64,000 nucleotides of DNA, from contig OZ024743.1 of NCBI GenBank assembly GCA_964016885.1, positions 157,604,001 through 157,668,000 of the forward strand, in the 5' to 3' direction. Of this stretch, positions 41,245 to 63,557 are shown one piece after another. The stretch is from Eledone cirrhosa. Its lineage: Eukaryota. A model generated the notes under the pieces. It searched no databases and was not told the DNA's origin. It worked only from the letters and a program-made list of their open reading frames with translations. The number at the start of each line of letters is the position of its first letter. Within the stretch, counting starts at the first letter, position 1. The position numbers and the translations under genes are program-made.

Positions 41245-41503
41245 AAGAATTAGTATATCTACCAACATATATATACAGATGCATACCTATGCTAGCAAAT
41301 ATATAGGTTTTGTCTTAGTAACTTTGTGGTTCAATGCAAGGGGATGCAGAACAATTATATGAAAGACGTAAAATAAGAAAATTATAAAAATTAACTTACT
41401 TACTAAAATTTCACTTCAACTAATTAGTTTCTGAAAGGGAATAAACATGGTTTCCGAATGGAACACATGGAGAATGCCTTTCGTTATTTTACGTCTTTCA
41501 TAT
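41245..41503 (-). mobile_element. PLE pLTR/tail fragment with a short inverted arm, between (TA)n; same family as 56377-56585
   Basis: Half hammerhead on minus (GAAAGG..CCTTTC-A-GAAA-CTAATTAG-TT); inverted arms 41357-41378 and 41484-41505. Confidence 0.65.
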
Positions 41504-42876
41504 ATATATATATATATATATGAAGAAAAGAGTAGTCTAAGTTTATGGATAGTTTAAATTAGTGAATGTTATTAGCCGGGAGGAGAGTAGACAAGAAAGT
41601 AGAAACAGGTCAAACATATTAGAGGTCACTTGGCAATAGAGAAAATGCACTTTATGATTTATCAGGGGAAACATTGACCACTGCTGTTATTCTTATTTAT
41701 CCTCATGTCAGTCTGAATTCTCAGGCAATTATCAACGAGGTTCTAGCCTTATTTAAGGCATTGTGCATCAAGGATATCCAAATCATCCTTCTTTTTAGTT
41801 GATGGGAAGTGATTCAAAAGGACGTTTGGCTGCTGTTTCTAGTAGTTCACATGACCAGATAGAGACATTTTTGTTCGTTATTTTTTAATTGGTATGTGAA
41901 AGAGAAGATGCAGTTCGGCAGTAGGTCAAGAGTTGTAGTTTGTCGGTGTTTGAATGTTTACCTTAAGTAATCTTTTGTCATTTTTTCCATTACGTTTTTA
42001 CCTTGGTTATAGGGGCAGTTTTCTTTTCTATTATCATGAATATTTGAGCTTTGTTAAGAAATAAGCAGTATTTTCTTATTCTAAATCTTCAAGTATTCAA
42101 AACACTTTTGACTTTGTTGTATCTTATAACATTAATACTCAACTTTCATTTCAATAGTATAGATATTTCCAAAGTCATTCCATTGATATGGTTTCTCAAT
42201 TTTATGTATATATTTACTGCTGATTTCTTTTCTTTTTGTTTTCATTCAGACATTTCTTGGTCTGGAATACCAAACTCAGGATAATGAGCTCAGCTTATTT
42301 CATCCATTTCAATTTCATTTCTATGGTTTCGTAGAAAACTATGTGTTAGTATGTCATTTAGAGACTTCACACATTCAATATATCAAAACAAAAATATAAA
42401 AGAAACGAGAACGGAATAGTTTAGTAAAATGTCCACATCGATAGTTGCCAATCTCTCAAACAATATAGTTTTCAATGTACTTACGTTGTTGTAAAATGAA
42501 ATAGTGACTGATTTTACATTACACCGCGAAAGAAAACAGAAAATATCAAAAAGCTTGTTGAAAAGAAATGATCTTTCAACGCAATGATACGAATTAATAC
42601 AGAAGTTATGCAGAGTATCCTTGATTCAATTTTTATATGTAGATATTATTTCTTCTTCACCTGCATTTTACAAAATGAAGTGAAACGAAAACAAATTCAA
42701 TGGAATATAATATTTAAATTTTATTTAATCAATAAAAAGGCTATATTCAATCCTGTACTATATATTCTAAATATTGCGGTTGAAAAGTGTATTTTTGTAA
42801 TACGATCTTATTTGAATATATGAACGTTTTTACTGTGTAAGTCTTTGTTGTGAATATATATATATATATATATATA

Positions 42877-43860
42877 AATGAAGTAATTCCATCGGAAAAG
42901 TCCAGGAAAAAAGAGTGCTCTATGTAGGCAACAGAGCTTAATTATTATTATTATGTAATAAACAACATAAGGCAATTATTCCATTTACCAGTGGTTTCTT
43001 AAAAGCAAAAGGTTTTGCTTTCAATCCTCAGAATGAAAAAATCCTGGTTTGTTTATTGAATTTGGATTACAAAAACAAAAATGCAATCTATATGAAAGTG
43101 AGGCTGAGAATTTTCCGTCCCATAATATCGGTTTATACCGTGATGACGGATTAGCAGTTTCTCATACCACCAACGGCCATAATCTTGATAAATTCCGTAA
43201 AGATTTAATCAATACTTTTGCTAATCTTAACCTTAAAATTACTATAGATACGAACCTTACTAATGCTAACTTTCTTGATATTAATCTTGATCTACTTACT
43301 GCCTCTTTTAAACCCTATCATAAACCTAATGAAAATCTTAGGTATATACACAAAGAGTCTTGCCATCCCCCTATAGTTTTTAATAATCTTATTCCTAACA
43401 TTAGCCGTAGGATTTCTACCGTATCTTCGTCTATAGACATTTTTAATAAAGCCGCATCTTATTATAATAAAGCCCTTAAGAACAGCGGTTTTACAGAAAA
43501 CATTTCTTATTTACCTACTCCCCCCCCCCCCTAAAACTAACCATAATAACATGAAAAGGAAGATTATTTGGTTCACACCCCCTTCTCTCTAACTGTCAAA
43601 ACTAATGTAGGAAGGAAATTCCTTGAACTATTAGATAAACATTTTCCTCCTAGTCATAGATATTATAAGATTTTTAATAGGAATGTAGTTAAGATCAGCT
43701 ACTCTTGTTGCCCATCTATGAAGTCCAAAATCACCAGTTCAAACCGTACGAGGATAAATCAAGGATGCAGAATTGAAAGCAAAACCTTTTGCTTTTAAGA
43801 AACCACTGGTAAATGAAATAATTGCCTTATGTTGTTTATTACAGAATAATAATAATAATA
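42877..43860 (+). mobile_element. Naiad-type PLE fragment (RT motif C/thumb) between inverted pLTR pieces and (TA)n
   Basis: GLYRDDGL, NFLDINLDL, PYHKPN, YIHKESCHPP, W(F)TPPFS..VKTNVGRKFL.LLDKHFP..H.YYKIFNRN.VKISYSC; inverted repeat 42943-43025 vs 43772-43858. Confidence 0.85.
42982..43035 (-). ncRNA. Type I hammerhead ribozyme, canonical core
   Basis: CATT-CTGAGGA-TTGAAAGCAAAA(CC)TTTTGCTTTTAA-GAAA-CCACTGG-TA-AATG. Confidence 0.88.
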
Positions 43861-43925
43861 TATATATATATATATATATATATATATGTATATATATATG
43901 TATATATATATATATATATATGTAT

Positions 43926-44055
43926 GTTGATGATTTCTCCCGAATGAAACAGTTCTAGTCCTGTAGAAGCCATTTCTATATTAAAAATGTATACTCTGCT
44001 ATGTATTGAGTACCTTACTTACTGTGGTTACTCCCGATTGAACCCGGGATAAACT
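43926..44055 (+). mobile_element. PLE 3' tail starting at the hammerhead core; same family as 55688-55870 and 44297-44348
   Basis: TTGATGA-TTTCTCCCGAAT-GAAAC-AGTTCTA-GTC, then GTATTGAGTAC, ending in (TA)n. Confidence 0.7.
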
Positions 44056-61800: not shown

Positions 61801-62479
61801 AGAACTGGACATGAAAGGAATTTGCCCACTATACAGGAGCAAATCATGGAATAGCTTAGATAGGGCTAGACATAAGATAGGGAAGGCCACATCATGGTAC
61901 GACAACCAGAGATATCAGAGTGTCATGTTTGTGGACGCCACCCCCGGAGGGAAATTAGCTAACCAGTGTAGAAAGGCCCTGAGAAAGACCCACTTAAAAA
62001 TAAAGGTGGTAGAAAAGCCAGGAACCACCATAAAATCCCTGATCAGCAAAACCTACCCTTTTAAGAAAACCCACTGTACCAATAGGAAATGTATCATATG
62101 TAAGGTGAACCCCCGGATAAACTGTAAAACTAGAAACGTAGTCTATAGCATAAGATGTACAGAGGGTACTTGCAGAAACACGACAACAACATACATAGGT
62201 GAGACAGCTCGTAGCATAGGTGAAAGGATAGACCAACACTGGGGGGAACTAAAAGGACGAAAAAACGGGTCAGTACTATACGAACATGCTAGACAACAAC
62301 ATGACGGTAACATAGACAACATAGAAATTAGAATAATATCTAAACATAGGAATGACCCAGCAGATAGGCAAATCAGAGAGGCCAGTGAAATAGAAATTAG
62401 AAGACCAAAGCTAAACAGAAAGAATGAGTGGAACAACAACAACACCCAAACAAACAACACTGACCTAAGAGAAGTATAA
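58847..62479 (+). CDS. PLE polyprotein: reverse transcriptase + Cys-rich linker + GIY-YIG endonuclease (Neptune/Nematis-like architecture), uninterrupted 1210 aa
   Basis: PTDKSGR, LYGLRKDHK..RPVC, SMDVVSLYPSI, QNEGAAIG..ANLFM, YSRYVDD, LPVLD, CxxxxCxxC..C, NVVY..C..C..YIGET.R..ER..QH, R.IREA..I, LNRKNEW. Confidence 0.95.
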   Translation: MTLPKYNNICFDTRFHIKNLAKLIHRRYGISLCQAERLLKDTVFCYIKTTITTEQIRFLKHCVSSKTYTTNISKQVNNLLLNKTQAERLKHTITVNMKRTTYTKVNALYRQKRINGKEIRNLITANERDDFMSVIRRETKYAQNECCRHFKKKLEWMNKKKLQERKIEYSQKYPDNIDNIRMSDVKLPEEFTNDHTVNIYGNTLISEQEQQILKLPPKFAIYKKINPMECKTELEKCFTKIRWNAKVNNNNNNNGSSNINNNSGYRNNSHNHNNGRKVRNSDNSNNTSDRQNNNNHNNNNNRNVNHRHSNSDHSSNNCNNTNNNNNNNRSGNNGNSTCSNINKNKKHNNSNNHNGRNSSNNNNNNGEVNNNTSSNHNNNNINANDRNNNNHHDNNNSNTHNYDDRNNDNPLEKLFFNPADKTYKMGNIYPTRLPFNKRVCIPQQIDDETGAQFTIARNKIRQVVDRYTMRQSRPEAQQLGIKPVEGLVSLKQRTRDGEVVCLPTDKSGRMSIDSMPNYIEAMQPHITNTSEVAQLTHDGREKILNAHMMMWTDILKPSRRTANNFQASNNGIPPLYGLRKDHKTVDDPTTGPPTRPVCGANIASNYRIFYFLSMVMRPIIKMSPDVCESTEDLLSRISECNKNRSLSNCIIGSMDVVSLYPSINIDFAVKRCVEMIIESEVEFCDVDTDELGLLLRLTYDTDYLDSHDLRCFCPSRPIRCRPPTITSMAKKTPLGRWIGWTKAIRTPQNTDQVRKMVAHAKGASIKTTLKGHIFKFNEKIYTQNEGAAIGVSIAGDVANLFMVWWERRLKDLLNESSIDLIMYSRYVDDINIDIRTPPLESTNKFDLERSTMESIQQIANSIHQSITVTIDFPSKHPNNRLPVLDTELWINTIDERAQILHSHYAKPMASKYLILKNSAMSSSAKFNILIADLVRVMKNVSSMCDPTEMEGHIQHFINRMQFSGYNQRDRVRVYEGAMEKYKTLIELDMKGICPLYRSKSWNSLDRARHKIGKATSWYDNQRYQSVMFVDATPGGKLANQCRKALRKTHLKIKVVEKPGTTIKSLISKTYPFKKTHCTNRKCIICKVNPRINCKTRNVVYSIRCTEGTCRNTTTTYIGETARSIGERIDQHWGELKGRKNGSVLYEHARQQHDGNIDNIEIRIISKHRNDPADRQIREASEIEIRRPKLNRKNEWNNNNTQTNNTDLREV

Positions 62480-62747
62480 ATGAATGAGTAAATTAAATTA
62501 AATAAATAAAATAGGATAGGTGAGTGCATACACAGGCACATAAACACACACTGGTCGCCCAGCAGACACAACACTATACACACAAGTCACACATCACACA
62601 TAACACTATACACACACGCAAACGCATGCGCAAAGAAGACAAAATAAAATAAGATAAACAAACAAGCAAATAAATAAATAAATATATAGACAGACTGAAC
62701 AAAAAAAAAATGGCGTAGACATACAACACAACAGGAGGAACAATGAA

Positions 62748-62802
62748 TATAACACCACTGACGATGTTGCAGATGTGCAACGAAAGATTTATGTAAATTA
62801 TG
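62748..62802 (+). ncRNA. Hammerhead ribozyme in the 3' pLTR
   Basis: Identical to 58605-58659. Confidence 0.78.
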
Positions 62803-63000
62803 TAAACTATATATATATGTGTTTGTCTATATTGTATCTGTATTATTTTTGACCGCCGGTCAGTCAATGGCAACATTGAGGACCGAGTAAGTTAGATCGC
62901 AGATATATATATATAAAAGACAGCGAGAAGCGAAAACCAACCAGTGAGTGTGTTCTGTTGTTAATTCTGGCAATATTACGCAAATATGACCCTCCCCAAA

Positions 63001-63557
63001 TATATATATATATATATATATATATATATATATATATATATATACATATACACACACTTATATACATACATATACACATACACATACATATATATATATA
63101 TATACATACATATACATATATATACATATATATATATAGTTATATATACATATATATATACACATATATACACATACACACACATACATATATATATATA
63201 TATATACATGTATATACACATACATACATACATATACATACATACACACACATATACACATATATACATATATATATATATATATATATACATATATATA
63301 TATATATATACATATATATACATATATGTGTGTGTGTGTGTATATGTGTGTGTATGTATGTATGTATGTATGTGTATATACATGTATATATATATGTGTA
63401 TGTGTGTGTATGTGTATCTATGTGTATATATATGTATATATATATGTATATATATGTATATATGTATATATATATGTATGTGTATGTGTATATGTATGTA
63501 TATATATGTGTGTATATGTATATATGTATATATATATATATATACATATATATATAG
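63001..63557. repeat. Compound TA/CA/TG microsatellite
   Basis: Direct inspection. Confidence 0.95.

What the first reader, a model, noticed from the sequence alone, without database searches (positions are those of the whole stretch)
41245..63004. Recurrent 'two-tailed' palindromic insertions into (TA)n
Seen: at least 11 insertions have the form (TA)n - inverted 3' end ... 3' end - (TA)n, with arms from ~20 bp to 1.44 kb. They lie at 41245, 42877, 44370, 46027, 47407, 50282, 54062, 55297, 55688, 55897, 56377 and 56626 (not all have perfect TA on both sides). The two arms usually stop at different tail positions, often at a TA microhomology. Established: PLEs often show an inverted 5' pLTR. 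Inference: because (TA)n is self-complementary, both nicked strands may prime cDNA synthesis, with the two cDNAs joined centrally. That would be a systematic palindrome-generating mechanism yielding dsRNA hairpins in an animal with very high ADAR activity.
Basis: partly seen in the sequence, partly recalled or inferred. Interest (0 to 1): 0.72.

Follow-up and report, generated by a model that had tools for sequence, protein, structure and literature searches.

The report
Twin-primed Penelope insertions, one tail
These mirror-image repeats in TA microsatellites are real leftovers of Penelope-type jumping genes, a layout already described, but one arm nearly always ends at a short site and the other at a long site, which likely means that both cut DNA strands start copying the same RNA at two set points.

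Summary
All 12 sites carry head-to-head inverted arms (18-1379 bp) beside (TA)n; 9 of 12 pairs are not identical. They are Penelope-like element (PLE) insertions (Hydra-type, one Neptune/Nematis-type, short non-coding families). Inverted 5' copy, one-sided tail and (TA)n targeting are published.

Added here is a count. Each family has two fixed ends, short (S) and long (L), 40-180 nt apart. Of 89 head-to-head pairs with both ends S or L, 85 are S+L; in copies met by chance, 35 of 36. Fold-back cannot build 24 of 70 resolved pairs. Partner arms are closer to each other than to other copies. Best reading: both nicked strands prime on one RNA, one at S and one at L, and the cDNAs are end-joined.

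The 'because (TA)n is self-complementary' step is not supported as necessary. dsRNA/ADAR is untested. About 33 such palindromes per 530 kb suggests roughly 190,000 genome-wide. This scan has reported the same pattern before, on other DNA of this genome and of other genomes.

The parts
41245..41499 (.). Family B two-armed insertion (non-coding 530-bp tandem unit): long-end arm 41245-41481 on -, short-end arm about 41482-41499 on +
   Evidence: (L091)
42877..43857 (.). Family D two-armed insertion: inverted long-end arm 42877-43028; + strand copy with RT C-terminal fragment (ORF 43037-43534 and beyond) and short end at 43857
43922..44055 (+). Single-armed family C copy between two (TA)n runs (counter-example: no inversion)
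   Evidence: inverted match to 55692-55815; sequence
44370..44577 (.). Family E two-armed insertion: short-end arm 44370-44430 on -, long-end arm 44439-44577 on + (tail about 76 nt)
46027..46599 (.). Family F insertion: inverted long-end arm from 46027 made of tail only, then direct tail plus body to 46507 and a TA-rich tail part to about 46599
47407..49359 (.). Family G (Hydra-type motifs) two-armed insertion: short-end copy 47407-49150 on - with GIY-YIG ORF piece 48481-49137; long-end arm 49151-49359 on + (tail 89 nt)
50153..53365 (.). Family H (Hydra-type motifs) two-armed insertion: inverted long-end arm 50153-50719; + strand copy with broken RT-end/GIY-YIG ORF from 50837 and short end at 53365
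54064..55068 (.). Family I (Hydra-type motifs) two-armed insertion: inverted long-end arm 54064-54351, + strand 3' piece ending at the short end 55068
55299..55674 (.). Family J two-armed insertion: short-end arm from 55299 on -, long-end arm 55505-55674 on +
   Evidence: short end followed by (TA)n at 55594 in thousands of raw reads
55686..55867 (.). Family C two-armed insertion: long-end arm 55686-55818 on -, short-end arm 55820-55867 on +; a hammerhead-like core (CTGATGA...GAAAC) lies next to the centre
   Evidence: motif read by eye
55898..56354 (.). Family K palindrome with both arms at the long end; an exception (12 of the other 15 family K pairs are short+long, 3 have another end)
56378..56582 (.). 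Second family B two-armed insertion with the same two ends as 41245 but another centre
56628..58073 (-). Family A inverted, 5'-truncated copy ending at the long site (the tail is the first codons of the ORF)
58068..58928 (+). Family A direct pLTR plus tail; ORF start codon at 58847; hammerhead-like core near 58614
58847..62479 (+). Family A ORF, 1210 aa from Met, open: Asn-rich insert, RT, CX4CxxC linker, C-terminal GIY-YIG-type motif
62225..62999 (+). Family A 3' pLTR ending at a short site five codons into the repeated ORF start, then (TA)n
63558..63906 (-). Single-armed family I copy with the short end, between two (TA)n runs (counter-example)
   Evidence: L182

Best explanation
These are Penelope-like retroelement insertions into (TA)n whose two mirror-image arms end at two fixed family sites, and they are likely made by twin priming: both nicked target strands would start reverse transcription on one RNA, one at the short site and one at the long site, and the two cDNAs would be end-joined in the middle. 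Steps: (1) the GIY-YIG nuclease nicks both strands of (TA)n (inferred; shown in vitro for another PLE). (2) One 3' end primes at the short site S, next to the ORF start of a tandem transcript (site shown, priming inferred). (3) The RNA upstream of S is then in a hybrid, so the second 3' end primes on the free RNA downstream, at the long site L (inferred). (4) The L-primed cDNA copies the tail and either stops near S or goes on by displacing the first cDNA, so both arms carry the same sequence (arm extents shown, displacement inferred). (5) The two cDNA ends are joined with 0-4 nt of microhomology or a short filler (shown), probably by host end joining (inferred). If only one strand primes, a single-armed copy results. 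The TA words at S and L probably help pairing with the target but do not choose the sites.
For: Two dominant ends in each of six families, mostly on TA/TATA words, 40-180 nt apart (family I's short end is CATT and family K's sequence beyond its long end was not in the reference). Of 99 de-duplicated head-to-head pairs kept: 85 S+L, 2 S+S, 2 L+L, 10 with another end; 85 of 89, p=4e-21 against the most favourable independent null of 0.5. In loci chosen without the tail: 49 of 51. In families C, D and E met by chance in other loci: 35 of 36. In 24 of 70 resolved pairs neither arm is contained in the other's cDNA, so one folded-back cDNA cannot build them. In 6 of 70 the L arm stops inside the tail, as in classical twin priming. 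The partner arm is closer than every other copy in 23 of 63 pairs and closer than the median in 45 of 63; some pairs share many private variants, including pairs that fold-back cannot build (H L083 and L318, 14 each). Centres differ from copy to copy; 26 of 30 gap-free centres have >=1 nt microhomology against a 45% null. PMC11167929: PAc nicks and extends both strands, starts at two internal RNA sites that bound the tail, and is predicted to be a dimer.
Against: Nothing here observes an RNA or an enzyme. An asymmetric dimer holding two RNAs from the same donor would give the same S+L rule. Arm similarity can also come from gene conversion or a shared donor, and 18 of 63 pairs are not closer than the median. 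In 46 of 70 pairs the S arm lies within the L arm, which fold-back could also build (this share is raised by tail-selected queries). Microhomology is weak (mean 1.7 vs 0.7 nt), and 40 of 70 centres show 1-30 nt unassigned, partly an artefact of strict trimming. 15 of 85 centres were unresolved. Three pairs with a long internal TA run were dropped before counting (one S+L, one L+L, one S+S). In PAc in vitro both strands used both start sites without difference. Searches returned only the 40 best candidates per query, so the samples favour young copies.
Confidence: 0.6

Rival explanations
1. Dual priming on two RNAs: an asymmetric enzyme dimer holds two RNA molecules, one in the short register and one in the long register, and each nicked strand copies its own RNA.
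For: Explains the S+L rule and free arm lengths with no need for strand displacement; a dimer is predicted for PAc (PMC11167929); dual priming has been proposed for L1 (PMC2837659).
Against: Needs a built-in asymmetry that was not seen in vitro (both strands used both sites, PMC11167929). Partner arms share private variants more often than random copies do, although RNAs from one donor locus would too. L arms that stop inside the tail or just past S (6 of 70 inside) fit a block on a shared template.
Confidence: 0.2
2. Self-priming fold-back (in the spirit of PMC3846280): one cDNA primed at the long site folds back on itself, copies itself as far as the short site and is joined to the other target end through TA pairing.
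For: Gives S+L and near-identical arms. 46 of 70 pairs are geometrically compatible. In families C, E and K both arms often stop at nearly the same point.
Against: Cannot build 24 of 70 pairs, nor the window's 47407, 50153 and 56628 insertions, where the short-end arm holds sequence absent from the long-end arm and the reverse. Short ends also occur on unpaired copies. A shared stop point is equally explained by both cDNAs running off the RNA's 5' end.
Confidence: 0.12
3. Two independent insertions into the same (TA)n, or later recombination and gene conversion, create the inverted pairs.
For: Insertions cluster in (TA)n and sit back to back; gene conversion could explain arm similarity.
Against: Independent insertions would leave (TA)n between the arms and pair the ends at random; the centres have no TA run and 85 of 89 pairs are S+L.
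Confidence: 0.04
4. MITEs or fold-back DNA transposons that target TA.
For: Short palindromes flanked by TA resemble Tc1/mariner MITEs (own knowledge). For families C, E, F and J no ORF was linked here.
Against: The ends are asymmetric, the centres vary, single-armed and tandem copies exist, and five families (A, D, G, H, I) carry RT and/or GIY-YIG-type coding pieces.
Confidence: 0.02
5. Fold-back artefacts of long-read assembly.
For: No long reads could be laid, and the window's junction at 50719/50720 was not bridged among the records shown.
Against: 9 of 12 arm pairs differ in sequence; the ends fall on fixed family sites; short-read contigs and raw Illumina reads show head-to-head joints of the same families, and one contig spans 55777-55862.
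Confidence: 0.01

Closest known systems
Insertion unit of endonuclease-positive PLEs (Craig et al. 2021, PMC8557442 Fig. 2; Pen2a_Av, PMC3846280)
   Same: Partial tandem pLTR, adjacent inverted 5'-truncated copy, tail at one end, pLTR that includes the first codons of the ORF, Asn-rich insert, (TA)n targeting in Neptune, Naiad and Hydra.
   Different: Tails here are 40-180 nt rather than 30-40. The one-short-one-long rule is counted here (85 of 89; 35 of 36), whereas the papers call the tail optional or 'often at one end'. Most copies are short stubs with no direct pLTR.
Poseidon PAc in vitro (Frangieh et al. 2024, PMC11167929)
   Same: Two internal RT start sites that bound the tail; both target strands nicked and extended; AT-rich target.
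   Different: PAc starts at sites not homologous to the cut DNA, while here most sites end on TA/TATA words that match the target. That paper does not link the two sites to the two arms of one insertion.
Hydra clade of PLEs (PMC8557442, section 11)
   Same: Families G, H and I: C-terminal GIY-YIG type, CxCX5C linker, CxxC and CxH motifs, (TA)n targets.
   Different: No tree built and the N-terminal RWK/DKT motifs not checked; family A has a CX4CxxC linker instead (Neptune/Nematis type).
L1 twin priming and dual priming (as described in PMC2837659)
   Same: Two primers from the two target strands, an inversion, and an inner junction with little microhomology.
   Different: L1 primes at the poly(A) tail and at a variable internal site and usually leaves a deletion. 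Here both sites are fixed and close, and the arms usually duplicate the same sequence, which makes palindromes.
Animal non-LTR retrozymes (10.64898/2026.07.22.740005; PMC4209133)
   Same: Family B is a 530-bp non-coding tandem unit with a hammerhead-like core and PLE-style ends.
   Different: Rfam found no hammerhead; cleavage and circular RNA were not tested.

Membership tests
EN+ Penelope-like elements | Single ORF with RT and C-terminal GIY-YIG endonuclease | tested here: met
   Family A ORF of 1210 aa; weak RVT_1 hit (E=0.0013, below Pfam's cut-off; the whole protein had no hit at 0.01); homolog P0079 (E=3.2e-23) has RVT_1 and GIY-YIG above cut-off; YVDD and VVY..YIG motifs by eye
EN+ Penelope-like elements | pLTR from a partial tandem that includes the first codons of the ORF | tested here: met
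   58068-58860 = 62225-62999 at 97%; ATG at 58847, repeated at 62986
EN+ Penelope-like elements | Inverted 5'-truncated copy and one-sided tail | tested here: met
   tails longer than the published 30-40 bp
EN+ Penelope-like elements | Hammerhead ribozyme in the pLTR | tested here: inconclusive
   Rfam found no hammerhead in 40-64 kb; a core with a 6-bp stem II is conserved in family A copies and core-like words occur in B and C; helix I and cleavage not shown
EN+ Penelope-like elements | Target-site duplication | not testable with these tools
   The target is (TA)n on both sides, which hides any duplication
Hydra clade (families G, H, I) | CxCX5C linker, CxxC and CxH motifs, no CCHH, (TA)n target | tested here: met
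   Read by eye from translations (CNCRDPSLC, CNCRSTATC, CNCRDRGRC; CNLC and CRH in G) against PMC8557442 section 11
Hydra clade (families G, H, I) | RWK and DKT motifs; place in the PLE tree | not tested
   No full-length intact copy was examined and no tree was built
Neptune/Nematis clades (family A) | CX2-5CxxC linker before a C-terminal GIY-YIG | tested here: met
   CTNRKCIIC before VVYSIRC..YIG; the clade was not fixed by a tree
L1-type twin priming | Two primers, one from each target strand | tested here: inconclusive
   Inferred from the S+L rule and the 24 of 70 pairs that fold-back cannot build; not observed
L1-type twin priming | Poly(A) priming and deletion at the inversion point | tested here: not met
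   No poly(A); arms overlap in 64 of 70 resolved pairs. It works like twin priming but is not the L1 form
MITE / TIR DNA transposon | Symmetric terminal inverted repeats and a fixed internal structure | tested here: not met
   Asymmetric ends, variable centres, single-armed and tandem copies

The most novel reading that the evidence does not exclude
PLEs integrate by an obligate two-site twin-priming step: one enzyme dimer, one RNA, two fixed start sites, with the second cDNA displacing the first. The long-unexplained inverted pLTR and one-sided tail are then one event, shared by at least two PLE clades and their non-coding passengers. In this genome it has written on the order of 190,000 palindromes into (TA)n, which would make PLEs a major source of intramolecular dsRNA for ADAR wherever these are transcribed.
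Probability: 0.35. Interest if true: 0.7.

Novelty: new variant of a known kind. Interest (0 to 1): 0.46.

Why it matters
How PLEs form their tandem and inverted ends is named as an open question in PMC8557442, and the later steps of integration are left open in PMC11167929. The one-short-one-long rule ties the two RT start sites seen in vitro to the two arms of a single insertion and gives a simple test in the existing in vitro system. It also shows that a large class of TA-flanked palindromes, easily taken for MITEs, are retroelement ends. The layout itself is not new, and the link to RNA editing is only a possibility.

Tried and rejected
Pfam on five window ORFs at E<=0.01 found no family. 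Rfam on 40-64 kb gave only microsatellite-driven miRNA matches below threshold and no hammerhead. No RNA holder was listed and no long-read run was offered; this says nothing about expression.

The first junction mapping failed for families G and H because the reference held both orientations; it was redone. The first end count lost family A ends through its settings; it was redone.

A-to-I footprint in copies: rare sense-strand changes were A>G 120 and T>C 131 overall, with opposite trends between families, so there is no consistent signal, and this is a weak test. 'Site choice by TA richness' was rejected: several TATA words inside the B, G and H tails are unused. A possible nested 13th pair (44605-44988 with 46600-47208) was not confirmed, as no pairs were found in other loci. 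An order bias of mirrored CA/TG microsatellites was not found: 0 C-then-G and 2 G-then-C among 98 arrays, by a strict pattern that misses interrupted arrays.

Print searches for the mechanism: searches returned no paper, judged from the listings, that proposes twin priming for PLEs. [quoted passage not shown]

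
Full report
OBSERVATION. Arm-by-arm alignment gives 18 to 1379 paired bases; 9 of 12 pairs differ by mismatches or gaps and three short pairs are identical. In 11 of 12 one arm runs on by an unpaired tail to (TA)n; 55898-56354 is symmetric. Two single-armed copies of the same families lie between TA runs (43922-44055, 63558-63906). The window is G000:C4:157604001-157668000 of a 3.0-Gb genome. 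The best homolog of the large ORF is an Octopus vulgaris protein at 67% identity.

WHAT THE ELEMENTS ARE. 56628-62999 has the textbook PLE layout: inverted truncated copy with tail (56628-58073), direct pLTR with tail (58068-58928), an open 1210-aa ORF from 58847 with an Asn-rich insert, RT, a CX4CxxC linker and a GIY-YIG-type end, and a 3' pLTR that stops five codons into the repeated ORF start. The tail is the start of the ORF. Families G, H and I carry the CxCX5C linker of the Hydra clade (PMC8557442 section 11). Family D has an RT C-terminal piece of similar look. Family B is a 530-bp non-coding tandem unit. C, E, F and J are short families with no ORF linked here; one family K locus has a PLE-like N-terminal ORF beside it (L152), link not checked. 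Their PLE origin rests on the shared end behaviour.

TWO FIXED ENDS. I searched the genome with end pieces of six families (only the 40 best candidates were scored each time, of 346-2125) and fetched longer stretches for 60 loci. Each family has two dominant TA-abutting ends, short (S) and long (L): A 58872 vs 58915/58930, B 115 nt apart, G 89, H 150, I 179, K 40. Most end on TA or TATA words, but other TATA words inside the tails are unused, so position or RNA structure chooses the site.

THE PAIRING RULE. After de-duplication 102 head-to-head pairs were found, and 3 with an internal TA run over 16 nt were dropped (one each of S+L, L+L, S+S). Of the 99 kept, 85 are S+L, 2 S+S, 2 L+L and 10 have another end. 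Independent choice of ends can give at most 50% S+L; 85 of 89 has p=4e-21. Tail-bearing queries force one L end, so two cleaner sets matter: loci chosen by arm only, 49 of 51, and families C, D and E met by chance in all fetched loci, 35 of 36. Two of the 99 are window copies. Many ends are unpaired within view (family A: 18 pairs among 65 ends; family E: 28 pairs and 44 unpaired ends), so the two-armed form is common, not universal.

CENTRES AND ARMS. 70 of 85 centres were resolved. 30 have no gap, with 0-4 nt microhomology (26 with >=1 nt, null 45%; mean 1.7 vs 0.7); 40 have 1-30 unassigned bases, partly from strict trimming. In 24 of 70 neither arm is contained in the cDNA of the other, which excludes fold-back of one cDNA for these; 46 are compatible with it. 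In 6 of 70 the L arm stops inside the tail. Over the shared region the partner arm is closer than all other copies in 23 of 63 pairs and closer than the median in 45 of 63 (mean 2.5% vs 3.6%). This fits one template, a shared donor or gene conversion. In the window's family A insertion the three pLTR copies each have 3-4 private differences and do not resolve the template. In C, E and K both arms often stop at nearly the same point, as expected if both cDNAs run off a short RNA's 5' end or stall at one hairpin.

ABUNDANCE. One detector run on 53 evenly spaced 10-kb stretches gave 36 two-tailed calls, 3 of them from one satellite-like stretch. 33 per 530 kb scales to roughly 190,000 in 3.0 Gb. 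This is a rough figure: the calls were not checked one by one for PLE origin, and the detector finds only 6 of the 12 in this window. The window's 41-64 kb is about four times denser than average; 1-40 kb has none.

NOT AN ARTEFACT. Only short-read data were offered. They come from an organism that differs at many sites, so the reads report other copies of the families. They show head-to-head joints of families H, J and C at other positions, the H short end near 50281 and the J short end at 55594 followed by (TA)n, and one contig across 55777-55862. The window's junction at 50719/50720 was not bridged among the records shown.

MECHANISM. Shown: two fixed ends, the S+L rule, arm extents and centre structure. 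From print: both-strand nicking and extension, two internal start sites bounding the tail, and a predicted dimer (PMC11167929). Inferred: one RNA carries both primers. Priming at S leaves only the downstream RNA free, so the second strand primes at L and extends by displacement, and host end joining closes the centre. I put two-strand priming at about 0.8 and the one-RNA form at 0.6. Transcription through the arms, dsRNA and editing were not tested.

WHAT IS KNOWN. The inverted copy, one-sided tail and (TA)n bias are in PMC8557442 (passages and section 11 read). Self-priming was proposed in PMC3846280 (passages). Two start sites are in PMC11167929 (parts 1-2 of 4 read: abstract, main text, part of methods). 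Twin and dual priming for L1 are in PMC2837659 (passages). Hammerheads and circular templates are in PMC4209133 and 10.64898/2026.07.22.740005 (passages). The O. vulgaris repeat annotation PMC13282606 (passages) lists PLE families and, in the passages seen, does not discuss this layout. Searches listed no paper applying twin priming to PLEs; subscription papers and supplements were not seen. This scan's earlier notes (unchecked AI notes, seen after my reading was written down) report the same layout in this genome and the same one-tail, twin-priming reading in other genomes.

VERDICT. The feature is real and systematic, and it is a known PLE insertion form. The strict short-plus-long pairing and the pairs that fold-back cannot build point to a twin-priming variant that I did not find in print and that is directly testable. 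Interest 0.46.

Noticed in passing
window 63000-63556: The long TA-rich array is itself mirrored: left half C-rich (41 C, 2 G), right half G-rich (6 C, 44 G), about 79% complementary. No such order bias was found in 98 arrays from evenly spaced regions, by a strict pattern.
   Followed up: partly
window 44605-44988 and 46600-47208: A 182-bp inverted pair (44809-44988 / 47027-47208, 96%) brackets other insertions and may be an older two-armed insertion with nested elements; not confirmed in other loci.
   Followed up: partly
window 53398-54050 and 45065-45748: Another TA-flanked family with a direct repeat about 530 bp apart (53398-53518 = 53930-54050), single orientation here.
   Followed up: partly
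window 59590-60070: In-frame Asn-rich insert in the family A ORF, upstream of RT; like the N-rich inserts of rotifer Penelopes (PMC3846280) but at another position.
   Followed up: no
L212:4880 (minus strand), G000:C1:331418000-331427999: A second open 1217-codon family A frame in partial tandem, so the family is young; L218 and L220 are also full partial tandems.
   Followed up: no
families C, E, G, I, 3-9 nt past the short end: A shared CTCT(A/G)C word just inside the tail, at the base of a predicted hairpin in C and E; may mark the start site. Absent in the A, B and H references.
   Followed up: partly
incidental family E copies: Several family E palindromes have A-run/T-run fillers at the centre, suggesting untemplated additions on the cDNA ends before joining.
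   Followed up: no
window 2147-7936, 8922-13221, 15164-16825, 24447-25784: Decayed non-LTR retrotransposon ORFs (RT-like) and a transposase-like piece in the first 26 kb, where no two-armed insertions occur; labels by eye from the translations.
   Followed up: no
window 20074-21076: Three tandem copies of a 334-bp unit at 95% identity; could be another non-coding tandem unit.
   Followed up: no
L039 and L040 (C2:261757537.., C2:257520859..); L185-L187 (C1:74.79-74.83 Mb): Near-identical loci at different places, probably segmental duplications; pairs were de-duplicated before counting.
   Followed up: no
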